From IMG/VR virus record IMGVR_UViG_3300021440_000001: a stretch of DNA of 17,498 nt, one strand, 5' to 3'. Positions 264-17,217 of this stretch are shown here, piece by piece. A program made the translations under genes and the position numbers. Source of the stretch: a virus. Lineage: Duplodnaviria; Heunggongvirae; Uroviricota; Caudoviricetes. Below the pieces are notes generated by a model, which worked only from the letters and a program-made list of their open reading frames with translations, ran no database searches and was not told the DNA's origin. Numbering within the stretch: position 1 is the first letter of the stretch; the number at the start of each line of letters is the position of its first letter.

Positions 264-1277
264 TTAGTTGGACGATGTCAGTTCCACGACCAGCGCAGGG
301 CGCAGCAGGGCGTTGACGAAGTTCGATTCGCTTTCGATTTCGATCTTCGTGCCCTTGGCGTCAGCCGTTTCAAACACGTAGACTTGTTCGCCGAGCGTGT
401 TAACCAGGCCGAAGCGGTTTGCAGGCGAGAAGTACGTCTTGAACGCATCGGTTCCCATCGGAACCATGTAAGCCTTGCCAGCAGGGATCAGGCGCTGACC
501 AGCATACGTGTCACGCATTTCAACGAACTTCGTGCCGCCGAACTCAAACTGACGGTGGAGAGCCGAAGCGCCACCCAGACGTTGACGCAGGGGCTCTTGC
601 GTGCTCATGTAATACTGATACGCAGTCTTGACAGAGGCGTGCGAAATCAGCTTGGCGAAGAATTCCGGCGAAGTCAGAACAACAGTTCCGGTCACCGAAG
701 CTCCGAAGGCGTTGTCTTGAATCTGGGAGATACCAGCTTCAATCTTCGCGATCATTTCAGTCGTGCCAGTTCCGAGCAGGAAGTCAACAGATGTACGGGT
801 CACACCGAACTCAGTGTTCCAGTTCTGCGACACAGTGCCGTTCGGCGAGTACACGGTAGCGCCCGTGACTGCTTGTGCGCGGGCGAATTCCAGCGTCCAA
901 GCATGGTTTTGGCGAATACGCTCAAGCTTGCGTGCGCGCACAGCTTCGAGAGTTTCAACACCGGCAGCCGAGCCATAAGCGCGCTTGCCCTGAAGGTCTT
1001 GCGGGCTGATGTAGTCGTCATACGGGAAGTGAGGAACCGCAAAGGTATGCAGCTTGCGAGTTGCATCCTTACCTTGCGATCCACGGTCGCCACGAACGCG
1101 GTCAACGATGAGTCCGCCATCCTTGATGATTTCTTCAAAAACCACCACATGCTCAGCGACAGATTCTTCTTGGAAGAGTCCGAGCTGGCCGATTGTGCCC
1201 CATTGGTTAGGGACTACGTTGACTTCTTGGGTCCAATCGGCCACTTCAAAGCCGTTTGCAAAGCTACGAATAATCAT
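264..1277 (-). CDS. Major capsid protein (Phage_cap_E-like, HK97 fold)
   Basis: 337 aa; motifs FAVPHFPYDDYISPQDLQGKRAYG, RARKLERIR, IESESNFVNALLRP; AAGGA SD; follows protease, scaffold and decoration genes. Confidence 0.93.
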   Translation of the reverse strand: MIIRSFANGFEVADWTQEVNVVPNQWGTIGQLGLFQEESVAEHVVVFEEIIKDGGLIVDRVRGDRGSQGKDATRKLHTFAVPHFPYDDYISPQDLQGKRAYGSAAGVETLEAVRARKLERIRQNHAWTLEFARAQAVTGATVYSPNGTVSQNWNTEFGVTRTSVDFLLGTGTTEMIAKIEAGISQIQDNAFGASVTGTVVLTSPEFFAKLISHASVKTAYQYYMSTQEPLRQRLGGASALHRQFEFGGTKFVEMRDTYAGQRLIPAGKAYMVPMGTDAFKTYFSPANRFGLVNTLGEQVYVFETADAKGTKIEIESESNFVNALLRPALVVELTSSN

Positions 1278-1963
1278 GATTTAAAATCCTTTTTCACAGT
1301 TAGTGTCTGAATCCAGCCCAGCCATTCGTGGTCTATAAGCGGGTTCCAATTTTGTTTAAACTTACGATACATTCCTTGTAGGGCATACTTATTCGGAAGA
1401 CCGAAATGTTTACCCAAGCTTGTGTATCCCAAGTGAGAGTTGGCTTGCCAGAACTGGAATATTTCAGCCGCCCTGGCCCACAACGATTTATCCGCCTTAG
1501 ATACTTCCCACGGTAGCCTGTCTTTAGCAGCCTCCCGCATCTTTATTTTGGCGTCTTCAGATCGTTTTATTCCTGATCTGACTTTTGCAGCAGCTTGTCT
1601 CGCAGGGGAGTTAGAGCTTCGTCTAACGCCTTCTGCTATCTTCGCCTTGGCTTGTTCGGAATGTTTGACGTGTGCAGGCGGCTTTCCACCACCTTGTACC
1701 ACATTCCAACCAATCCGTTCTTTAGGGCGCAATCTTCGCTCTGTCTCTAAGCAGTAGTCTTCGCTTCCTGAGACAAGAGTTGTTAGAACAACTTCGTCAC
1801 CATACTTACGAATTGCTTTGTACAGTGTGTTAGAATTACCCCGCTTAGCCTCGCTAAGATGCTCCGCAAACCTGTCACTAGGACTACGCGAAGTAACTCC
1901 TATGTAACCCTCAGTCAAAAGGTTTGTGTGCGTTGGCAAGTGAATCCAGTAGACACAGCCCAC
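1274..1963 (-). CDS. Free-standing GIY-YIG (Seg-like) homing endonuclease with NUMOD3-like repeats
   Basis: VYWI...GYIGVT...RFAEH...LYKAIRKYG...E...GWN; repeats HSEQAKAKIAEG and RSEDAKIKMREAA; stop overlaps capsid ATG (ATGA); GTG start lacks an SD. Confidence 0.85.
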   Translation of the reverse strand: MGCVYWIHLPTHTNLLTEGYIGVTSRSPSDRFAEHLSEAKRGNSNTLYKAIRKYGDEVVLTTLVSGSEDYCLETERRLRPKERIGWNVVQGGGKPPAHVKHSEQAKAKIAEGVRRSSNSPARQAAAKVRSGIKRSEDAKIKMREAAKDRLPWEVSKADKSLWARAAEIFQFWQANSHLGYTSLGKHFGLPNKYALQGMYRKFKQNWNPLIDHEWLGWIQTLTVKKDFKS

Positions 1964-2946: not shown

Positions 2947-3791
2947 TGCATTTCCTTTTGAATTTGAGAGACGTATGCAGCGAACTGCTTATTCGTCATG
3001 ACAGCATTTGCAAGCCCCTTCTCAACTGCTGTTGCAGCATCAAATATTTTGGCTTCAAATCCGGTGATAGTCTTTACATCAAGACCAGTGTACTTGCTGA
3101 CGTGTGTGGCAAACTCTGCATTGAGCCTGTCTACGTCAGACTGAATATCTACAAGGAACGACTTCTTGAATGAGCCATCCTCAGCAAACGGAACCTTTGA
3201 TTCCCCAGATGTGACGAAGATTCGCTTCAGTCCGGCATTTTCCATGGCCTTCGACGTATCGAGAAGGGCTACAACGCAGCCGATTGATCCGAGGGAGGCA
3301 GATGGGTTAGCGATTACTTGATCGCACACACAGATGAGGGCGTAAGCCGCAGACGCTGCGATAGTGTCTGCATATCCGATAAGTGTGATATCATTTTCGT
3401 CGCAAATTGCGCGGATGTCTTCACAAGCCTGGAATACGTGAGAGGCTTCGCCGCCACCAGACGTTACTTCCATGACAATGGTCTTTACGCCAGCTTCGGC
3501 CATGTCTTCGACTTGATTTACAAGAGACTGGTAGCTAGTACCAGCTTCCCCGCAGAGCGTCATCACAGGCTTGTATGTCAAGCTTCCATCTACACGAAGG
3601 ACGCCGAGGCCGTTTGCGTACATCGGCTCTTCTTGATCGTCTTCAGGCTCTGGGCCGTCAAAAATGTCCATCCTGTAATCCAGCGAGTTGCGGGAATCAA
3701 GGTAGTCGAGCACTACGCTGAAAGCTTCTGTCGTGATTAGATGTGGGCGATTCCAAATGGAGGCGGCAAACCTATGAAGATGATGCGCCAT
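2943..3791 (-). CDS. Prohead (capsid maturation) protease, peptidase S49 family
   Basis: SGGGEAS, AASAAY, GSIGCV and SGESK motifs of SppA/S49; AAGGA SD. Confidence 0.9.
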   Translation of the reverse strand: MAHHLHRFAASIWNRPHLITTEAFSVVLDYLDSRNSLDYRMDIFDGPEPEDDQEEPMYANGLGVLRVDGSLTYKPVMTLCGEAGTSYQSLVNQVEDMAEAGVKTIVMEVTSGGGEASHVFQACEDIRAICDENDITLIGYADTIAASAAYALICVCDQVIANPSASLGSIGCVVALLDTSKAMENAGLKRIFVTSGESKVPFAEDGSFKKSFLVDIQSDVDRLNAEFATHVSKYTGLDVKTITGFEAKIFDAATAVEKGLANAVMTNKQFAAYVSQIQKEMQ

Positions 3792-4470
3792 AAATATCCT
3801 TAAAAGCTAACCAGTTTAGATCACTACTTGGAATCCAACCGGATTTGAATTTTTGAACGATTGCAAACAACTTGGAAGCTTCTAATCCACTCATACGTGA
3901 CAGCGTGTAGTGGCTCTTTCTCGTCAACTCGCAAAATAGCGAATATAGAGTGTCTGCCGAAGCCCATACAGACTTGTCGGATTTGGCATACTCCCAAGGC
4001 TTGTGCCTAAGTTTGTCCTTTGTTTCCACAGAGTGCCGCTTACCAAAGAACGGATTCTTGTCGCCAGTCTTACCGTAGAGACCATTCCTGCGACCAGAGT
4101 TGGCTACACCTATCTTTGCTCTGGTTTCGTTTGATAGAGACTTCCCAAAGTTAGGGTGGGCCTCTCCTGTAACACCGCGCATCGGGGACTTTCCTCCACC
4201 TTCGGCTATGTTCCAACCGATGTGCCTAGACGGTCTAAGCTTGGCCTCAATACAATAGCAATACTCTTCATCCGCCTCAAGTAACGGTTGCACAATCAAA
4301 TCACTTCCGTACTTTCTAATCGCGTTGTGAACAGCGTAAGTGCTACCGCCAGCGGCTTCCTTCTTATGCTGCCTAAGTCTCTCGGACAACGTGTGTTTAG
4401 TAACGCCTATGTAGCCTTCCCTGAACATGTCTATGTGCTCAGGGAGGTGTATCCAGTAAACGTACGCCAT
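3772..4470 (-). CDS. Free-standing GIY-YIG homing endonuclease with NUMOD3-like repeats (paralog of 1274-1963)
   Basis: VYWIHLP...EGYIGVT...RLRQH...AIRKYG...GWNIAEGGG; HPNFGKSLSNETRAKIG and NPFFGKRHSVETKDKL repeats; overlaps protease start by 20 nt. Confidence 0.87.
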   Translation of the reverse strand: MAYVYWIHLPEHIDMFREGYIGVTKHTLSERLRQHKKEAAGGSTYAVHNAIRKYGSDLIVQPLLEADEEYCYCIEAKLRPSRHIGWNIAEGGGKSPMRGVTGEAHPNFGKSLSNETRAKIGVANSGRRNGLYGKTGDKNPFFGKRHSVETKDKLRHKPWEYAKSDKSVWASADTLYSLFCELTRKSHYTLSRMSGLEASKLFAIVQKFKSGWIPSSDLNWLAFKDIYGASSS

Positions 4471-7406: not shown

Positions 7407-7648
7407 CAATGGTGTTCAAAAAGGCTTGCTATACCTTCCCCGCCCAAATGGGCCGCTGCATGTCGCCATGCAGATCAGACTATATCTTTACCTGTGATAG
7501 CAGGTAATCCCCGTTTCCACCCGCTTAGGTGTACTCTCTTTCGAGATAGTCGTTACACGTTCCGCCATTATAGCGGCTTCGCTCGGTATTGTCTCGCAGA
7601 GAGTTTCACCGAGTTAGAGGATTGTTTTTAACGTGGAGGCACAAGTTT
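7407..7648 (-). ncRNA. Self-splicing group I intron (subgroup IA2-like), 242 nt, no ORF
   Basis: 5' site after U (GGU|AAA), terminal omega-G (CCAUUG|GCA). P1 GUGGUGGU/GCCUCCAC with U.G at the splice site; P3 AAUCCUC/GGGGAUU; P4 CUCGGU/ACCGAG; P7 GACUA/UAGUC in AACGACUA and AAGAUAUAGUC; P7.1 UCUC-GAAA-GAGA; P7.2 CACC/GGUG; P8 UUACCUG/CAGGUAA; P9 CUGCAUG-GCGA-CAUGCAG. Excision restores the frame. Confidence 0.93.
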
Positions 7649-7744
7649 ACCACCACCGCAAAGCAGAATATCTGTATCATCATCCAGCAGGATCATCTGC
7701 TGCTTCAGACTACATGGTGCAAAGATTAACCTGTCGTCACTCAT
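7649..7744 (-). CDS. terL: Terminase large subunit, exon 1 (32 aa)
   Basis: MSDDRLIFAPCSLKQQMILLDDDTDILLCGGG; joined to exon 2 gives ILLCGGGAGGGKS (Walker A). ATG overlaps the HNH stop (ATGA). Missed by the ORF track. Confidence 0.9.
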
Positions 7745-8319
7745 TTATTACTCCCGTGAGATGGTTCATATACTATACCATTCGAGTTCAGCTCTTTAAT
7801 CTTCATCTCCCTGAAGGCGATGGCCATCTGCATAGCTACTTCATATCCGTACTTGTCTACACTGAAGTCTTTTGTGCGCTTTCCATTTTCTGGGTCGGAC
7901 CAGTTGGCACTGATAGTAGTGTAAATTCTGCCTGAAATCTCCCTACGACGAATCTGGACACCTGTAATACCGCTAGTATTGTTTCGCTGTTTTGAATGAT
8001 TTCTAGCCTGCTGTTCGATACGCTCCCATCGGATATTACCGTATGTGTACCAAGCATTGTTATCTATCCTACCAACACTCCAACCACTTCCTTCAGGCTT
8101 TTCTCCAATTTCTTTAAGGAAAGTAGGGAAACTTTCAACGAAATCACGATGGACAGATATACCCCTCTCGGCATAATCCTTGTATCGTTTATTTTTTGGA
8201 TTGAAGCAGCGTTTTTCCATATCTTTCCAATTACTGTAGGCAGGATTCTTACTCATTCCATGAGTCGTATTTCTCTTAGAGAGAGCAATACTTCTGCCAT
8301 TTGGAACTCTAACTTTCAT
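7741..8319 (-). CDS. HNH-type endonuclease with C-terminal AP2-like domain (192 aa)
   Basis: THGMS..Y..W..M..RC.NP....Y..Y..RGISV, RIDNN..Y..GNIRW and NNTSGITGV motifs. Start moved to ATG 8319 (GGAGGT SD) from the ORF-track start at 8484. Confidence 0.82.
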   Translation of the reverse strand: MKVRVPNGRSIALSKRNTTHGMSKNPAYSNWKDMEKRCFNPKNKRYKDYAERGISVHRDFVESFPTFLKEIGEKPEGSGWSVGRIDNNAWYTYGNIRWERIEQQARNHSKQRNNTSGITGVQIRRREISGRIYTTISANWSDPENGKRTKDFSVDKYGYEVAMQMAIAFREMKIKELNSNGIVYEPSHGSNK

Positions 8320-8341
8320 ATAACCTCCGCAGGTAAGTAAA

Positions 8342-8409
8342 TATTCTGAGTTCAACACACCAAGCCACCTGCGGACAGTGTTTACGCTAGATGCATTGAA
8401 CTCAGAATA
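8342..8409 (-). promoter_or_regulatory. Long hairpin upstream of the HNH RBS
   Basis: 14-bp perfect inverted repeat (8342-8355 / 8396-8409), extendable by G.U pairs; loop segment 8367-8375 is complementary to 8326-8334, which overlaps the SD. Confidence 0.6.
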
Positions 8410-8416
8410 CAATGTG

Positions 8417-8450
8417 AAAAACCCCGCAGCAGAGATACCTCTGAGCGGGG
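8417..8450 (-). terminator. Rho-independent terminator of the tRNA operon
   Basis: CCCCGC..CAGAG-GTAT-CTCTG..GCGGGG followed by TTTTT. Confidence 0.75.
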
Positions 8451-8457
8451 CCGTGTT

Positions 8458-8522
8458 ATCATTTAGCTCTACCTCCGAGCCCAAGGAGAAGGAGAAACAG
8501 CCAAGAGGTAGAGCTAAATGAT
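8458..8522. repeat. Perfect 18-bp inverted repeat with 29-nt spacer
   Basis: ATCATTTAGCTCTACCTC (8458-8475) / GAGGTAGAGCTAAATGAT (8505-8522). Confidence 0.9.
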
Positions 8523-8524
8523 TA

Positions 8525-8560
8525 TGGTCTGGATGGGTGGGCTCGAACCATCAACACTTG
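8525..8560 (-). pseudogene. tRNA 3'-half remnant (T-arm, acceptor 3' strand, CCA)
   Basis: GATGG-TTCGAGC-CCACC-CATCCAG-A-CCA; no matching 5' half between it and tRNA-Val. Confidence 0.65.
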
Positions 8561-8577
8561 CGTGTTTTTGCCAATAC

Positions 8578-8653
8578 TGGTGGATTCTACAGGGCTCGAA
8601 CCTGTGACCTACGCCTTGTAAGGGCGCCGCTCTACCAACTGAGCTAAGAATCC
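8578..8653 (-). tRNA. tRNA-Val(UAC)
   Basis: 76-nt cloverleaf; GCGCC-CT-TAC-AA-GGCGT; encoded CCA. Confidence 0.95.
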
Positions 8654-8657
8654 GTAT

Positions 8658-8696
8658 TGGTTGCGTGAGGTGGGATTTGAACCCACGACCGTCAGC
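8658..8696 (-). pseudogene. tRNA 3' half (positions ~39-76), Met-like, right after the nuclease stop codon
   Basis: GCTGA-CGGTC-GTGGG-TTCAAAT-CCCAC-CTC(A)CGCA-A-CCA; the preceding TAA stop sits where loop positions 36-38 would be. Confidence 0.8.
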
Positions 8697-9107
8697 TTAA
8701 ATCAGGTTAAATACTTTGTATTCGTCAGCAAACTTGATCCCTGTTCGTTGACCATTAGCCGGTTCGGATATCCTCAACGTAACTGTTTGGCTACCTTCCA
8801 TCGGCAAGTAATAGTAAGACTTCGTAGTCGGACAATATACTGCAATACCGTCTACGTCGTCCCTAGAAAGAGGAACCTGAGCAATCTTCCCTGATGAAAT
8901 AATTGCTCTGCGGAGCTGAAAAGAAATCCTGCCATTTACGACTTCTCTAGACTTAACTTGAAGTCTAGAGAACTTCCCGCAGCGATAAGCTACGACATCG
9001 AAAGGAGATACTGCGGATACTGGCATCATTACTTCATAGCCCTGACAAAGCAAGTCAGCAGTAACCATTGCAACGCCGATGTCCCCTTTTGTGGTGGTAT
9101 GATGCAC
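8697..9107 (-). CDS. PD-(D/E)XK endonuclease, PDDEXK_5 / I-Ssp6803I-like family
   Basis: HH.T.KGDIGV...DL...GY.V..P....PFD.V.Y..G.F.R.QVK motif; VDGIAVYCP.T...YYLP; strong GAGGAGG SD before GTG. Confidence 0.8.
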   Translation of the reverse strand: MHHTTTKGDIGVAMVTADLLCQGYEVMMPVSAVSPFDVVAYRCGKFSRLQVKSREVVNGRISFQLRRAIISSGKIAQVPLSRDDVDGIAVYCPTTKSYYYLPMEGSQTVTLRISEPANGQRTGIKFADEYKVFNLI

Positions 9108-9138
9108 CTGTAACCTCCTCTGAATTGCCCTTGTATAA

Positions 9139-9168
9139 CGCTGTTCTACCGGACTGAACTACTCCGCA
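9139..9168 (-). pseudogene. tRNA 5' half (acceptor 5' strand and D-arm)
   Basis: TGCGGAG-TA-GTTC-AGTCCGGTA-GAAC-A-GCG, then breaks into the nuclease leader. TGCGGAG pairs with CTC(A)CGCA of the 3' half with one bulge. Confidence 0.75.
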
Positions 9169-9175
9169 TCAATTC

Positions 9176-9252
9176 TGGTGCCCACCGCTAGAATCGAACT
9201 AGCGACCTATCGCTTATAAGCGATTGCTCTCTCCAGACTGAGCTAGGCGGGC
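9176..9252 (-). tRNA. tRNA-like gene (Ile/Met-type body) with a 6-nt anticodon loop; anticodon not assignable
   Basis: Intact acceptor (GCCCGCC/GGTGGGC, A73, CCA), D and T arms; anticodon arm ATCGC-TTATAA-GCGAT. Confidence 0.75.
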
Positions 9253-9300
9253 ATGACATGGCTTTGTACTCAGTTTTAATTCTTGTATTCTTCGCTCAGA

Positions 9301-9329
9301 AGAATACTCGCACTGATACTGTATGTCAG
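9301..9329 (-). promoter_or_regulatory. sigma70-like promoter upstream of the 6-nt-loop tRNA
   Basis: CTGACA-17 nt-TATTCT. Confidence 0.55.
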
Positions 9330-9475
9330 TGGTTACACTGAAAAGTGCAAACCAGCGTATGTCAAGTCGTAGAAATGTTGTGGACTTACGACATAGTGGT
9401 TTGCAGTATTATTGCACTAACGGAACGGAGTGGAAAGGGTCACTTTCTTGACTCCACTTGTTAATCAACAATGCT

Positions 9476-9552
9476 TGGCGCCCCGTAGCGGACTCGAACC
9501 GCTGACCTTCCCCGCGAAGGGGGGTTGCTCTAGCCAACTGAGCTAACAGGGC
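9476..9552 (-). tRNA. tRNA-like gene (Arg-type body) with aberrant anticodon loop CCUUCGC (nominal UUC)
   Basis: GCCCTGT/ACGGGGC, G73, CCA, canonical D and T arms; anticodon arm ACCCC-CCTTCGC-GGGGA lacks U33. Confidence 0.7.
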
Positions 9553-9559
9553 AGAATGT

Positions 9560-9653
9560 TGGCGGAGAAGGTGAGACTCGAACTCACACACCCCTTTTCA
9601 GGGTCTTCGGCTTTCAAGGCCGTTGCCGCTAGGCCAGCTCGGCTAACTTCCCC
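9560..9653 (-). tRNA. tRNA-Ser(UGA)
   Basis: CGGC-CT-TGA-AA-GCCG; long variable arm; G73; CCA; acceptor GGGGAAG/CTTCTCC. Confidence 0.92.
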
Positions 9654-9662
9654 ATTGACAGT

Positions 9663-9691
9663 AGTTTACTACCTTATGGCCTGACTGTCAA
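9663..9691 (-). promoter_or_regulatory. sigma70 promoter for tRNA-Ser
   Basis: TTGACA-17 nt-TAAACT, 10 nt upstream of tRNA G1. Confidence 0.75.
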
Positions 9692-9777
9692 GGCCGCAAA
9701 TCCTCAGTAGTTTTGGAGCTAGTCCCGACCCAGGACTTCGCCATCTTTCTCGTAAAGAGTGGTCATCGAAAATTCTT

Positions 9778-9851
9778 TGGAGCAGATTGCGGGGATCGAA
9801 CCCGCCTCATTAGCTTGGAAGGCTAAGGCCCAACCACTAGACCAAACCTGC
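9778..9851 (-). tRNA. tRNA-Gly(UCC)
   Basis: 74 nt; TTAGC-CT-TCC-AA-GCTAA; U73; CCA. Confidence 0.95.
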
Positions 9852-9859
9852 ATAACACT

Positions 9860-9936
9860 TGGTGCGCGAGGTGGGAGTCGAACCCACAGAACCCGGCTTC
9901 TTAGGCCGGTACGTATGCCAATTCCGTCACTCGCGC
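9860..9936 (-). tRNA. tRNA-Leu(AAG), short variable loop
   Basis: 77 nt; CCGGC-CT-AAG-AA-GCCGG; Leu-type D-arm (ACG-GAATTGGCATA-CGT); A73; 5-nt variable region; CCA. Confidence 0.88.
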
Positions 9937-9944
9937 ATAATATT

Positions 9945-10018
9945 TGGTGCCCCGCGACTGGATCGAACAGTCGATGCTGGGTTACAAAGCCAACGTTATA
10001 CCACTTAACTAGCAGGGC
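9945..10018 (-). tRNA. tRNA-Thr(UGU)
   Basis: 74 nt; TTGGC-TT-TGT-AA-CCCAG (C31.C39 mismatch); CCA. Confidence 0.85.
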
Positions 10019-10419
10019 TACGTGCCAAGACGTTCGTAACGCTGTTTGCGCTCGACCGGGCAGTATGTTCTATTTGCTCTCTTCCAAGCTCGTGCTGTTT
10101 CCAGGTGAGCTTGCTTCGCCTCTTCCCTGCTGTCGTACTTCCGATTACCCTTCGCGTCAGCAAAGTTGCAGGATTGATGACTGTATCCGATGTTCCCTAT
10201 GTCGAAAAATTTTCCAACAGGGTTGTCGCTATCTAACCACGGCTCAACGTGCTCGATTGAGAAATCTTCTCGCGTCATCGGCTTGCCACACTTGCAACAG
10301 TTTGACAAGCCTGCGTTGACGATGAAGTTCCACAAAAGGTCTTTCACAAGCCTGTGGCTCGCTGTACTGTGGTTCATGCCAAGCTGGTTAGACTTCTTTT
10401 CACTACTTGCTTTACTCAA
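10018..10419 (-). CDS. HNH endonuclease-like protein inside the tRNA array (~133 aa)
   Basis: CxxC...SIEH...N...SHQSCN (Zn-binding HNH). Start moved to TTG 10419 (GAGGG SD) because the ORF-track N-terminus runs through tRNA-Ala. Confidence 0.72.
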   Translation of the reverse strand: MSKASSEKKSNQLGMNHSTASHRLVKDLLWNFIVNAGLSNCCKCGKPMTREDFSIEHVEPWLDSDNPVGKFFDIGNIGYSHQSCNFADAKGNRKYDSREEAKQAHLETARAWKRANRTYCPVERKQRYERLGT

Positions 10420-10451
10420 GACTAGCCCTCGCTGTCGTTTGTATTTGTTGA

Positions 10452-10527
10452 TGGTGGACTGTGTGGGAATCGAACCCACCGATAACTGCTTGCAAAGCAG
10501 CCAAGAACCCCAGCTCAATCACAGCCC
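10452..10527 (-). tRNA. tRNA-Ala(UGC)
   Basis: GCTGC-TT-TGC-AA-GCAGT; G3.U70 and A73 identity elements; D-arm non-canonical. Confidence 0.85.
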
Positions 10528-10535
10528 ATTTCGTC

Positions 10536-10563
10536 ATTGTACATGACAGTGCTGATTTGTCAA
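10536..10563 (-). promoter_or_regulatory. sigma70 promoter for tRNA-Ala
   Basis: TTGACA-16 nt-TACAAT. Confidence 0.7.
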
Positions 10564-10576
10564 GTACATCATTGTT

Positions 10577-10663
10577 TGGTGGGCGCCATAGGGATCGAAC
10601 CTATCATGGCCCGTAGGCCGGCGGGGTTACAGCCCGCTCCCGCACCATTGCGGGGAGACGCCC
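10577..10663 (-). tRNA. tRNA-Tyr(GUA)
   Basis: 87 nt; GCGGG-CT-GTA-AC-CCCGC; variable arm GGCC-TACG-GGCC; CCA. Confidence 0.93.
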
Positions 10664-10682
10664 ATGTCTCTTACTTGTAGCT

Positions 10683-10710
10683 ATTCTACACGAGAATCGC
10701 TGTATGTCAA
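10683..10710 (-). promoter_or_regulatory. sigma70 promoter at the head of the tRNA array
   Basis: TTGACA-16 nt-TAGAAT. Confidence 0.7.
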
Positions 10711-10726
10711 TAGCTTCTGAAGAAAT

Positions 10727-11089
10727 TTATTCAACAGAACGAATTGTCGTGAAGTCCACCAGTGGGCGAGACTTCTGTTCCTCTACGGGAACTAGGTTGC
10801 TCTTTGGACCCTTCACCAGCTTGACCTCTGCAATGAGGCGCTGCATCTGGTCAGAGCTAAGTTCCTTTGCAACCGACACCTGAAATTCTAGCAGCTTCGT
10901 CGCTGCTGTCAACTTGATCTTTGGATCAGAGCTGTCTAGCATCGACACCAGTGCGTCGATAGCAGCCTTCGAGTGCTTCTTGATGTCTGTGTGCAGCTTC
11001 TTCAGGTCTACACTGTTCGTCAGGAAGCTCGGGGCTTCCTCTTGCATCACCACTACAACAGAGGTAGTGGAGCCGTCATGATTGCTCAT
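10727..11089 (-). CDS. Hypothetical helical protein, candidate terminase small subunit
   Basis: 120 aa from ATG 11089 (GGAGGT SD); helical A..AL..ML.S.D.KIKL.AA.KLL pattern; upstream of terL across the tRNA island. CDS is solid; the TerS assignment is inference. Confidence 0.5.
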   Translation of the reverse strand: MSNHDGSTTSVVVVMQEEAPSFLTNSVDLKKLHTDIKKHSKAAIDALVSMLDSSDPKIKLTAATKLLEFQVSVAKELSSDQMQRLIAEVKLVKGPKSNLVPVEEQKSRPLVDFTTIRSVE

Positions 11090-16014: not shown

Positions 16015-17217
16015 GTGCGAAAGCTTGCATCTATTCAACGTGTGCTGTCGGTTCGACCGATCCCCGGCGCCGACCTTATTGAAGCAGTCGATGTCCTTGG
16101 CTGGACTGTCGTCTGTAAGAAGGGACGGTTCGCTGTCGGCGACCTGTGCGTGTACTTCGAGATTGACTCGTTCCTTAACGCAGACGATGAGCGTTACGCC
16201 TCGTTTGAAGACCGCTTCACTAATTGGGGCACGAAACGCGGCATGCGTCTGAAGACTATCAAGCTGCGAAAGCAAATCAGCCAAGGGCTGATTATGCCAA
16301 TCAGCGACTACTTTGAGCTGTCGCCATCTGTCCGTATGAACCCAGTTGTCGAGGGCGAAGACGTTACTGAACTTCTCAAGATTGAGAAGTGGGAGCCGGC
16401 CGAAGAAGCAACTAGCAACGCTGGCGGAATTGGCAAGGTTGCCGGCTCCAAGCCGTTCCCGTCCTTCCTGCGAAAGACTGACCAAGAGCGCGTTCAAAAC
16501 TACATTGGCGAGCTTCCGAAAGTTGCAGACCAGTCTTTCGAGGTCACTATCAAGCTCGACGGGTCTTCAATGACGATTTTCCATGTCAACAAGCTAAGCC
16601 CGCATTACGCGCATGCAGCGGAGGATATCGAAGTCCGCGCTGTCAAGCGTATGAGCTGGTTTGGCAAGAAGTGGCACGCAATCAAGAAGGCTGTCGGGCT
16701 TGTCCAGACTCCAGCGTTCATTGACGGTCTGTGCAGTCGTAACATTCAGCTCGACATCAATGATGGAAACCACTTCTCGCAGTATGTCCGTGAGCATTTC
16801 CTTCTTGAAGCCCTGGAAAACTACGGTCAAAACATCGCTGTTCAAGGCGAACTGATTGCCCCCAGCATCCAAGGTAACTATGAAAAGGTTGCAGGCTTCG
16901 AGTTTTACGTGTATGATGTCTTCGACATCGACGCTCAACGCTACCACTCACCTGAAGTCGCGCGAGAAATCGTCAAGGCACTTGGCCTGAAGTATGTCCC
17001 GGTACTTCAGCACGGTGCTATGTTGGTTGACTTCGGTTTCGCTGAAGGAACGCCTGTGCGAGACGTTGTTGACAACATCCTGGCATTCGCCGAAGGCGAC
17101 GGTATGAACAAAGGCGTGAAGCGTGAAGGCATCGTGTTCAAGTCGAACGGCAGTGAATTCAGCTTCAAGGCAATCAGCAACAGCTACCTTTTGCACAAGG
17201 AGAAGAAGGCAGCATGA
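16015..17217 (+). CDS. RNA ligase, Rnl2/DRB0094 family (400 aa)
   Basis: N-terminal RKLASIQRV...PGADLIE...GW.VVCKKG.F..GD.CVYFEIDS; KTDQERVQN; motif I KLDGSS; QGEL; FYVYDVF; REGIVFK; FKAISNSYLL; AAGGAG SD. Confidence 0.92.
   Translation: MRKLASIQRVLSVRPIPGADLIEAVDVLGWTVVCKKGRFAVGDLCVYFEIDSFLNADDERYASFEDRFTNWGTKRGMRLKTIKLRKQISQGLIMPISDYFELSPSVRMNPVVEGEDVTELLKIEKWEPAEEATSNAGGIGKVAGSKPFPSFLRKTDQERVQNYIGELPKVADQSFEVTIKLDGSSMTIFHVNKLSPHYAHAAEDIEVRAVKRMSWFGKKWHAIKKAVGLVQTPAFIDGLCSRNIQLDINDGNHFSQYVREHFLLEALENYGQNIAVQGELIAPSIQGNYEKVAGFEFYVYDVFDIDAQRYHSPEVAREIVKALGLKYVPVLQHGAMLVDFGFAEGTPVRDVVDNILAFAEGDGMNKGVKREGIVFKSNGSEFSFKAISNSYLLHKEKKAA

What the first reader, a model, noticed from the sequence alone, without database searches (positions are those of the whole stretch)
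8658..9168. A tRNA gene split at the anticodon arm by a bare PD-(D/E)XK nuclease gene, with no intron around it
Seen: a tRNA 5' half (9139-9168), then ~30 nt with a strong SD, a 136-aa nuclease ORF, and a 3' half starting exactly at position 39; the nuclease TAA stop occupies loop positions 36-38. The acceptor strands of the halves pair (7 bp, one bulged A). No P3/P4/P7 group I core is present. Known: the related I-Ssp6803I is encoded in a group I intron in the tRNA-fMet anticodon loop, and the 3' half here is Met-like (TTCAAAT T-loop, CGCAACCA). Inference: either a homing nuclease invaded and destroyed its own target without an intron, or the halves are processed and used or rejoined, possibly by the phage RNA ligase. 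Caveat: the anticodon-stem strands do not pair cleanly and the D-stem is not initiator-type, so the halves may come from two different tRNAs.
Basis: partly seen in the sequence, partly recalled or inferred. Interest (0 to 1): 0.8.

Follow-up and report, generated by a model that had tools for sequence, protein, structure and literature searches.

The report
Homing nuclease gene splitting phage tRNA-Met
A small selfish nuclease gene has landed, without any intron, in the anticodon arm of a phage tRNA-Met gene and almost certainly killed it; a related phage still carries the same tRNA gene uninterrupted.

Summary
On the minus strand, 9168-9140 is positions 1-28 of a CAU-anticodon tRNA. 9139-9108 is a 32-nt leader carrying GAGGAGG. 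9107-8697 is a 136-aa PF11645 (PDDEXK_5) nuclease gene. 8699-8658 is tRNA positions 36-76, so the TAA stop is T36-A37-A38.

The decisive evidence is a relative, L001 (TerL 86% identical). It carries the same tRNA uninterrupted (Rfam tRNA 43.9 bits, loop CTCATAA), including the same bulged A in the acceptor stem. In the window, 440 nt replace seven bases (positions 29-35). The two halves therefore come from one gene, and the anticodon is gone.

No group I core was found in the insert, although Rfam detects a group I intron in terL of the same window. L001 also lacks the window's HNH gene, two GIY-YIG genes and the terL intron, but it keeps the RNA ligase.

Every homologous nuclease gene examined close to this one lies within about 135 nt of a tRNA gene, several beside tRNA-Met. 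One (L034) shows the classical arrangement inside a group I intron of tRNA-fMet.

Best reading: a free-standing homing endonuclease gene inserted into its probable target and inactivated a dispensable tRNA. Rejoining of the halves is unsupported. This is a new variant of a known kind, of moderate interest.

The parts
9140..9168 (-). 5' fragment of a CAU-anticodon tRNA (tRNA-Met type), positions 1-28: acceptor 5' strand TGCGGAG, complete D arm, A26, G27, C28
   Evidence: 95% identical to L001:9103-9131, which is the 5' part of a contiguous tRNA scoring 43.9 bits on Rfam RF00005. Its best matches among relatives' tRNAs are tRNA-Met(cat) genes.
9108..9139 (-). 5' end of the insert: a 32-nt leader with Shine-Dalgarno GAGGAGG (9120-9114), six nt before the GTG start
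   Evidence: Read directly from the sequence. Absent from L001. No promoter-like site was found inside or just upstream of it.
8697..9107 (-). 136-aa PD-(D/E)XK homing-endonuclease-type gene (PF11645 PDDEXK_5). Its TAA stop (8699-8697) coincides with tRNA positions 36-38.
   Evidence: Pfam E 4.1e-29. The only PDB match is 2OST, I-Ssp6803I, at E 0.097, with the D and QVK motif aligned. D37, Q50, V51 and K52 are invariant among homologues. The C-terminal motif (F-N/P-L-I) is shared with homologues, so the last codons belong to the nuclease.
8658..8699 (-). 3' fragment of the same tRNA, positions 36-76: T36 A37 A38, 3' anticodon-stem strand GCTGA, variable loop CGGTC, perfect T arm, 3' acceptor strand with one extra A, discriminator A, CCA
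   Evidence: Aligns without gaps to L001:9139 onward. Its best match among relatives' tRNAs is the tRNA-Met(cat) of L005.
9176..9252 (-). Upstream neighbour: a tRNA with a 6-nt anticodon loop. It is context only and probably lies on the same transcript.
   Evidence: ARAGORN reports an 'anticodon (at)'. Rfam tRNA score 55 bits.
8578..8653 (-). Downstream neighbour: tRNA-Val(tac). It is context only and is syntenic with L001.

Best explanation
A free-standing homing endonuclease gene of the PDDEXK_5 (I-Ssp6803I-type) family, with its own ribosome-binding site but no intron, was copied into the anticodon arm of a phage tRNA-Met-type (CAU) gene. It replaced tRNA positions 29-35 with 440 nt.

Consequences for the tRNA (shown from sequence): the gene lacks its anticodon and half of the anticodon stem, so it cannot give a decoding tRNA.

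Expression (inferred): the nuclease is translated from read-through transcripts of the tRNA operon.

Spread (inferred): in mixed infections the nuclease most likely cuts the intact anticodon-arm DNA of ORF-less alleles such as the one in L001. Break repair from the ORF-bearing genome then spreads the gene. The carrier genome is immune because the site is destroyed.

Cost (inferred): the loss is tolerated because phage tRNA-Met is dispensable; several relatives have none. The flanking half-tRNAs are relics.
For: Shown:
- L001 holds the uninterrupted tRNA, with the same unusual bulged A. The flanks are 95% and 90% identical and exactly 7 nt replace the insert.
- The ORF is a full-length PF11645 member with the conserved D...QVK motif.
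- No group I or other Rfam fold lies in the insert at E<=10, while the terL group I intron in the same window scores 70.2 bits.
- ARAGORN in intron mode calls nothing here at its default threshold. It does call the classical intron-bearing tRNA-Met in L034.
- The other selfish elements of the window are likewise missing from L001 at clean junctions: the HNH gene, two GIY-YIG genes and the terL intron.
- No copy of the intact anticodon-arm sequence remains in the window, even allowing 3 mismatches.

Supporting pattern in homologues:
- Among the phage and metagenome homologues and the four closest MAG hits, every nuclease gene examined lies next to or overlaps a tRNA gene.
- Those associated with tRNA-Met are phage Herod, L019, L042 and the intron case L034.

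From the literature:
- I-Ssp6803I recognises a 23-bp pseudo-palindromic target (PMC3384342). [quoted passage not shown]
- Free-standing phage homing endonucleases that cut within tRNA gene arrays are documented for SegB (PMC13096335).
Against: - Cleavage specificity is untested. The target could be another nearby site, as is usual for free-standing homing endonucleases.
- Only one ORF-less comparator (L001) was found, and its own copy is imperfect: a T-stem mismatch, no CCA, and no ARAGORN call. The tRNA may therefore already have been decaying before the insertion.
- The window's halves keep a perfect T arm, D arm and CCA. This is more tRNA-like than L001 and could hint at retained use.
- An origin by loss of a ribozyme core from an ancestral intron cannot be formally excluded.
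Confidence: 0.8

Rival explanations
1. Exaptation as a processing scaffold. The retained acceptor, D and T elements fold into a tRNA-like clamp around the nuclease mRNA. RNase P and 3'-end maturation would then excise and stabilise a discrete mRNA from the tRNA operon transcript. This would be a natural version of the laboratory 'tRNA scaffold'.
For: - The halves keep 7 acceptor pairs, a perfect T arm, an intact D arm and CCA.
- Enforcing the acceptor helix costs only 0.8 kcal/mol relative to the MFE, and the helix has about 0.32 ensemble probability.
- The gene has no promoter-like site of its own.
- Several homologues also end inside a downstream tRNA gene.
Against: - With the insert shuffled, closure probability is much higher (median 0.99), and 95% of shuffles equal or exceed the native value.
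- The native ORF contains a perfect competitor for the 5' acceptor strand at 8917-8909, and the MFE pairs the 5' end there.
- There is no sequence variation among ORF-bearing copies with which to test covariation.
- If it is real, L025 keeps the 5' half without the 3' half.
Confidence: 0.1
2. The insert is removed at the RNA level and the halves are rejoined into a working tRNA, either by an unrecognised ribozyme or by endonuclease plus the phage RNA ligase.
For: - A T4 Rnl1-type RNA ligase gene lies at 16015-17217.
- At a relaxed ARAGORN threshold, a 5-bp alternative anticodon stem (CGTTA with TGACG) gives a weak 'tRNA-Leu(taa)' model with a 434-nt intron.
Against: - Positions 29-35, including C34 and A35, are absent, so the original tRNA cannot be rebuilt.
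- The relaxed model has two acceptor mismatches, a 3-nt variable loop and a shifted stem.
- No intron family was detected, although the terL intron served as a positive control.
- The ligase is 97% conserved in L001, which has no split.
- Only 32 nt before the ORF and 0 nt after it are non-coding, which leaves no room for a ribozyme core.
Confidence: 0.03
3. Degenerate intron. An ancestral mobile group I intron in the tRNA-Met anticodon loop (as in L034 and Synechocystis) lost its ribozyme core by deletion, leaving only the nuclease gene.
For: - In L034 a homologous ORF starts 3 nt into a 622-nt group I intron in the anticodon loop of tRNA-fMet, in the same orientation, with the ribozyme core 3' of the ORF.
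- The window's 3' junction lies in the same loop.
Against: - The closest homologues (52%, 46% and 39% identity) are all free-standing between tRNA genes, with no intron.
- L034 is only 25% identical.
- L001 has the tRNA with neither an intron nor any scar.
- No residual intron signal was detected.
Confidence: 0.05

Closest known systems
I-Ssp6803I, the PD-(D/E)XK homing endonuclease encoded in the group I intron of Synechocystis tRNA-fMet (PDB 2OST). The in-session equivalent is L034.
   Same: - Same Pfam family (PF11645) and the same D...QVK motif.
- The gene sits in the anticodon region of a CAU-anticodon tRNA gene, in the same orientation as the tRNA.
   Different: - There is no intron around it. 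The 200-250-nt ribozyme core is absent and seven tRNA nucleotides are deleted, so the host gene is not rescued by splicing.
- Pairwise similarity to 2OST is marginal (E 0.097).
- The host is a phage tRNA array rather than a bacterial chromosome.
Free-standing homing endonucleases in phage tRNA gene clusters, for example T4/T6 SegB (GIY-YIG), which cuts within tRNA genes and drives inheritance or amplification of the tRNA region
   Same: - Intron-less nuclease gene embedded in a phage tRNA array.
- Presence/absence polymorphism between related phages.
- The probable target is a tRNA gene.
- The array shows deletions and chimeras consistent with break-induced recombination.
   Different: - A different nuclease fold.
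- SegB and the window's own homologues sit between genes, whereas this copy lies inside the tRNA coding sequence and destroys it.
Genes in pieces created by homing endonuclease insertion, such as the nrdA of phage Aeh1 split by mobE (from my own knowledge), and the 'fractured genes' with split inteins (PMC2677866)
   Same: A free-standing nuclease gene inserted directly into a host gene, leaving two collinear pieces on either side.
   Different: - In those cases the pieces still assemble into a working protein.
- Here the host is an RNA gene, the anticodon is lost, and no reassembly route is evident.
Split and intron-containing tRNA genes of archaea (Nanoarchaeum-type halves, bulge-helix-bulge introns)
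   Same: The two tRNA halves are separated at or near the anticodon loop.
   Different: - There is no bulge-helix-bulge motif and no complementary leader sequences.
- Nucleotides are missing rather than merely separated.
- No splicing endonuclease is known in this setting.

Membership tests
PF11645 PDDEXK_5 / I-Ssp6803I-type homing endonucleases | Full-length match to the family profile above the curated cut-off | tested here: met
   101.8 bits against a cut-off of 26.1, E 4.1e-29, profile positions 1-137 of 138. A profile search of 1.84 billion proteins finds 1364 relatives at E<=1e-10.
PF11645 PDDEXK_5 / I-Ssp6803I-type homing endonucleases | Conserved PD-(D/E)XK-type catalytic motif | tested here: met
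   D37 and Q50-V51-K52 are invariant in alignment A3. They align with the D and QVK of chain 2OST_A. That they are catalytic is taken from the family, not tested here.
PF11645 PDDEXK_5 / I-Ssp6803I-type homing endonucleases | PD-(D/E)XK fold | tested here: inconclusive
   The AlphaFold2 model has mean pLDDT 53.6, too poor for a fold search.
Homing endonuclease gene (functional definition) | Presence/absence polymorphism at a homologous site between related genomes | tested here: met
   L001 lacks the 440-nt insert and has 7 nt there instead.
Homing endonuclease gene (functional definition) | Site-specific cleavage of the ORF-less allele and gene conversion | not testable with these tools
   This needs purified protein or co-infection experiments.
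Intron-encoded endonuclease in a tRNA group I intron | A group I ribozyme core (P3-P9) surrounding the ORF | tested here: not met
   No Rfam hit at E<=10 within 8300-10800 apart from tRNAs and noise. Positive controls: the terL intron at 70.2 bits and the L034 intron at 69.5 bits. Non-coding space is 32 nt 5' of the ORF and 0 nt 3' of it.
Free-standing phage homing endonuclease (intronless homing, SegB-like) | The gene lies between host genes, near but not inside its target | tested here: not met
   This copy lies inside the tRNA coding sequence. Its homologues do meet the criterion.
tRNA (Rfam RF00005) | A complete cloverleaf scoring above the gathering threshold | tested here: not met
   The window's halves are not called. 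The uninterrupted L001 allele scores 43.9 bits against a threshold of 29.
Split or spliced tRNA gene | The halves together contain every tRNA nucleotide, and a recognisable splice signal is present | tested here: not met
   Positions 29-35 are missing relative to L001. The only intron model appears at a relaxed threshold and has a malformed acceptor and variable region.

The most novel reading that the evidence does not exclude
The half-tRNAs are not mere debris. They may be kept as a tRNA-like clamp that lets RNase P and 3'-end maturation cut the nuclease mRNA out of the tRNA operon transcript and protect its ends. More broadly, this nuclease family may use tRNA genes as its expression and termination platform, since several members place their stop codon inside the next tRNA gene.
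Probability: 0.1. Interest if true: 0.7.

Novelty: new variant of a known kind. Interest (0 to 1): 0.5.

Why it matters
Models for the origin of mobile introns assume that an endonuclease gene landing directly in its own conserved target is costly. Only copies sheltered by an intron or intein, or parked beside the target, are expected to persist. This locus is a natural, population-stable example of the unsheltered state: the sequence is identical in contigs from three other samples. The nuclease belongs to the same family, and the disrupted gene is the same kind of tRNA, as in the classical intron case.

Both the empty allele (L001) and the intron-sheltered arrangement (L034) are available for comparison. 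The cost of insertion, the target specificity and the route from free-standing gene to mobile intron therefore become directly testable.

The survey also shows that phage PDDEXK_5 nucleases are systematically embedded in tRNA arrays. These arrays carry deletions and chimeric tRNAs of the kind expected from nuclease-induced breaks.

For annotation, the practical lesson is that this is a dead tRNA-Met plus a nuclease gene, not a novel split tRNA.

Tried and rejected
- **Group I or other intron.** The Rfam scan at E<=10 found nothing in the insert. ARAGORN in intron mode found nothing at its default threshold.
- **Two different parental tRNAs.** Rejected by the contiguous L001 allele.
- **The last codons of the ORF (CCTGATT) as a diverged copy of the tRNA loop (CCTCA).** Rejected because the C-terminal F-N/P-L-I motif is conserved in homologues.
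- **Close relatives of the nuclease in IMG/VR by peptide patterns.** None were found. The alignment query gave one distant locus.
- **DNA patterns for each tRNA half in IMG/VR.** Only the L001 contig was found.
- **Metagenome scan with TerL.** It gave two further relatives, neither informative for this allele.
- **GenBank phages by blastn.** Only generic tRNA matches were found.
- **Structure prediction of the nuclease.** pLDDT was 53.6, so no fold search was run.
- **Whole-genome file.** None is held for this window.
- **The look-up of sequencing runs.** I could not look for ORF-less reads in the same samples or for RNA evidence, and read laying was therefore not used.
- **EMBO J 2007 structure paper on I-Ssp6803I.** It is not held, so the exact target and cut positions could not be quoted.
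- **Literature searches for a phage tRNA gene split by an intron-less homing endonuclease.** No precedent was found in the held library. This is not proof that none exists.

Full report
**What is in the sequence**

All features lie on the minus strand.
- The tRNA at 9252-9176 ends in CCA and is followed by an 8-nt spacer.
- 9168-9140 reads as the 5' part of a tRNA: acceptor strand TGCGGAG, TA, a D stem GTTC/GAAC around a normal D loop, A26, G27 and C28.
- 9139-9108 is a 32-nt leader with GAGGAGG six nt before a GTG start codon.
- 9107-8697 is a 136-codon ORF.
- Its TAA stop runs directly into GCTGA, CGGTC, a perfect T arm (GTGGG, TTCAAAT, CCCAC), an 8-nt 3' acceptor strand, a discriminator A and CCA, ending at 8658.
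- tRNA-Val follows at 8653-8578.

ARAGORN and Rfam call nine tRNAs in the array but nothing across this locus.

**The ORF**

- It matches PF11645 (PDDEXK_5) end to end with E 4.1e-29.
- The only solved structure it matches is 2OST, I-Ssp6803I. The match is marginal (E 0.097), but the D and QVK motif residues align.
- D37 and Q50-V51-K52 are invariant among its nearest homologues.
- A profile search of 1.84 billion proteins returns 1364 relatives at E<=1e-10, so this is a large family.
- An AlphaFold2 model was too poor to use (pLDDT 53.6).

**Ancestral state and junction**

I fetched relatives through the large terminase gene, which lies 1.7 kb away.
- Compared with all 117 tRNAs called in those loci and the window, the 5' fragment's top matches and the 3' fragment's best match are tRNA-Met(cat) genes that share the T1...A72-A73-CCA signature.
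- The closest relative is L001 (IMGVR_UViG_3300035180_001180), whose TerL is 86% identical.
- L001 matches window 9199-9140 at 95% and window 8699-8535 at 90%. The two segments are only 7 nt apart in L001.
- Read directly, L001:9103-9180 is one contiguous tRNA: the same acceptor strand and D arm, anticodon stem GCAGC/GCTGA, loop CTCATAA, and the same 3' acceptor strand with the extra A.
- Rfam scores this tRNA at 43.9 bits against a threshold of 29.

The conclusions from this comparison:
- The halves derive from one gene.
- The bulged A predates the split.
- The window has 440 nt (9139-8700) in place of positions 29-35 (AGCCTCA).
- The TAA stop can be assigned either to T36-A37-A38 of the tRNA or to the nuclease cassette, giving a 3-nt junction overlap.
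- The ORF's last residues (F-N-L-I) match a conserved C-terminal motif in homologues. They are therefore not tRNA-derived.

**No intron**

- Only 32 nt before the ORF and none after it are non-coding.
- Rfam at E<=10 finds no intron or ribozyme in the insert.
- The same library detects a group I intron at 7456-7671 inside terL (70.2 bits) and one in L034 (69.5 bits).
- ARAGORN in intron mode at its default threshold calls nothing here.
- At a relaxed threshold it offers only a malformed 'tRNA-Leu(taa)' with a 434-nt intron, two acceptor mismatches and a shifted anticodon stem.
- By contrast, it cleanly calls tRNA-Met with a 622-nt intron in L034.

**A genome colonised by selfish elements**

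Relative to L001, the window has these extra segments, each with clean junctions:
- this insert;
- an HNH gene (about 8410-7735);
- the terL intron (7649-7406);
- two GIY-YIG genes (4479-3746 and 1972-1291).

The RNA ligase gene (16015-17217) is 97% identical in L001, which has no split tRNA. The ligase is therefore not tied to the split.

**The nuclease family lives in tRNA arrays**

| Locus | Identity to the window nuclease | Context |
|---|---|---|
| L018 | 52% | Between tRNA-Ser and tRNA-Phe of a syntenic array |
| L019 | 46% | ORF reads through a compact tRNA-Met-like element and stops at the TAA of its CCCATAA loop |
| L020, L021 | 39% | Between tRNA-Val and tRNA-Ala; stop codon inside tRNA-Ala |
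| L028 | 39% | Stop codon inside tRNA-Arg(tct) |
| Synechococcus phage Sf-FR1 | 36% | Between tRNA-Arg and tRNA-Val; overlaps tRNA-Val |
| Acinetobacter phage Herod | 34% | Between tRNA-Arg(tct) and tRNA-Met(cat), near an HNH gene and terL |
| L039-L044 and L029-L032 | lower | Next to tRNA genes; in L042 directly after tRNA-Met(cat) |
| L034 | 25% | Classical arrangement inside a group I intron in the anticodon loop of tRNA-fMet |

Six more distant genomic hits had no tRNA nearby. The window is the only case found where the gene sits inside a tRNA gene with no intron.

**Mechanism**

*Shown:*
- The insertion, the loss of the anticodon, and the absence of any detectable splicing element.
- An intact nuclease ORF with a strong ribosome-binding site.
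- Identical sequence in contigs from three other samples.

*Inferred:*
- The gene is transcribed with the tRNA operon, because no promoter-like site lies in or just upstream of the 5' half.
- The enzyme cuts the intact anticodon-arm DNA of ORF-less alleles, whose stem makes it pseudo-palindromic. This matches the kind of target described for I-Ssp6803I (PMC3384342; title of Bonocora and Shub 2001, cited in PMC3984707).
- Repair of the break copies the gene into the empty allele.
- The carrier is immune, because no sequence within 3 mismatches of the intact arm remains in the window.
- The tRNA loss is tolerated. Relatives vary widely in tRNA content, and about half of those examined have no tRNA-Met.

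**Rival readings**

*Processing scaffold.*
- For: the acceptor helix is thermodynamically accessible. Enforcing it costs 0.8 kcal/mol and it has about 0.32 ensemble probability.
- Against: shuffling the insert raises closure to a median of 0.99, and 95% of shuffles match or beat the native sequence.
- Against: the ORF carries a perfect competitor for the 5' acceptor strand at 8917-8909. There is therefore no sign of selection for closure.

*Rejoining by RNA ligase or hidden splicing.* Seven nucleotides, including C34 and A35, are missing, so this cannot restore the tRNA.

*Origin from a degenerate intron.* This is possible but less parsimonious. The nearest homologues are all free-standing, and L001 shows neither an intron nor a scar.

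**Caveats**

- Only one ORF-less comparator exists, and its tRNA is itself imperfect: a G-A mismatch in the T stem, no CCA, and no ARAGORN call.
- L025, a 550-nt scaffold from another sample, is identical to the window up to about codon 47 of the nuclease. It then continues into tRNA-Trp and tRNA-Pro. This is either a degenerating allele or an assembly chimera.

**Verdict**

- This is a new variant of known kinds: an I-Ssp6803I-family nuclease gene, normally intron-sheltered or parked between tRNA genes, caught inside its probable target with no intron.
- Interest is moderate (0.5).

Noticed in passing
window 7456-7671 (-): A group I intron (Rfam RF00028, 70.2 bits) interrupts terL. In L001 the two exon matches abut with no gap (L001:9988/9989), so the intron is absent there.
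   Followed up: partly
window 9176-9252 (-): A tRNA with otherwise good arms has a 6-nt anticodon loop (TTATAA) within a 16-bp perfect palindrome. It is most similar to the tRNA-Thr(tgt) genes of relatives, differing by a 1-nt loop deletion. It is identical in L015, L016, L017 and L025. L001 has a chimeric tRNA fragment at this position that shares only the 3' end. A lesion in the anticodon loop, right next to a nuclease family known for anticodon-arm targets, might be a repair scar.
   Followed up: partly
window 8530-8577 (-): A tRNA remnant follows tRNA-Val. Its 5' part matches the fragment after tRNA-Val in L001. Its 3' part matches the end of L001's tRNA-Pro(tgg). The two alignments overlap by 16 nt in the T arm (8550-8535). 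This implies a T-arm-mediated deletion of about 420 nt that removed the equivalents of Glu, Asn, Phe, Trp and most of Pro.
   Followed up: partly
L025:1-550: This scaffold from another sample is identical to the window through the odd tRNA, the 5' half and the first 47 or so nuclease codons. It then switches to a spacer plus intact tRNA-Trp and tRNA-Pro and the terminal hairpin. It is either a truncated-nuclease variant or a chimeric assembly.
   Followed up: partly
L019:656-723: A compact tRNA-Met-like element: a 6-bp acceptor with a C-C 1-72 mismatch, a D stem closed by a tetraloop, a CCCATAA anticodon loop and a perfect T arm. It is overlapped by the C-terminal extension of a homologous nuclease ORF, which stops at the loop's TAA, the same stop position as in the window. 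No Rfam tRNA (RF00005) match was reported; the best are tRNA-Sec at 24.6 bits and a tymovirus tRNA-like element at 28.6 bits, both below their thresholds.
   Followed up: partly
L020:3443-3515, L026:2906-2977, L028:2421-2495, L039:1290-1322: Homologous nuclease ORFs end with a stop codon located inside the 5' part of the next tRNA gene. RNase P processing of such transcripts would remove the stop codon. L020 and L028 also carry phage tmRNA genes close by.
   Followed up: no
window 1274-1963 (-), 3772-4470 (-), 7741-8484 (-): Two GIY-YIG-type genes and one HNH-type homing endonuclease gene lie between the capsid, portal and terminase genes. All three segments lack a match in L001.
   Followed up: partly
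window 8909-8917 (-): A perfect complement to the 5' acceptor strand of the split tRNA lies inside the nuclease ORF. The predicted MFE structure pairs the 5' end there rather than with the 3' half.
   Followed up: partly
window 9253-9475 (-): A 223-nt non-coding stretch lies between tRNA-Glu and the odd tRNA. It has only weak promoter-like sites (9 of 12 matches) and no Rfam hit.
   Followed up: no
L029, L028, L040, L043, L044, L027: tRNA-Arg(tct) recurs as the immediate neighbour of PDDEXK_5 genes, as often as tRNA-Met does. This may point to a second preferred target or landing site for the family.
   Followed up: no
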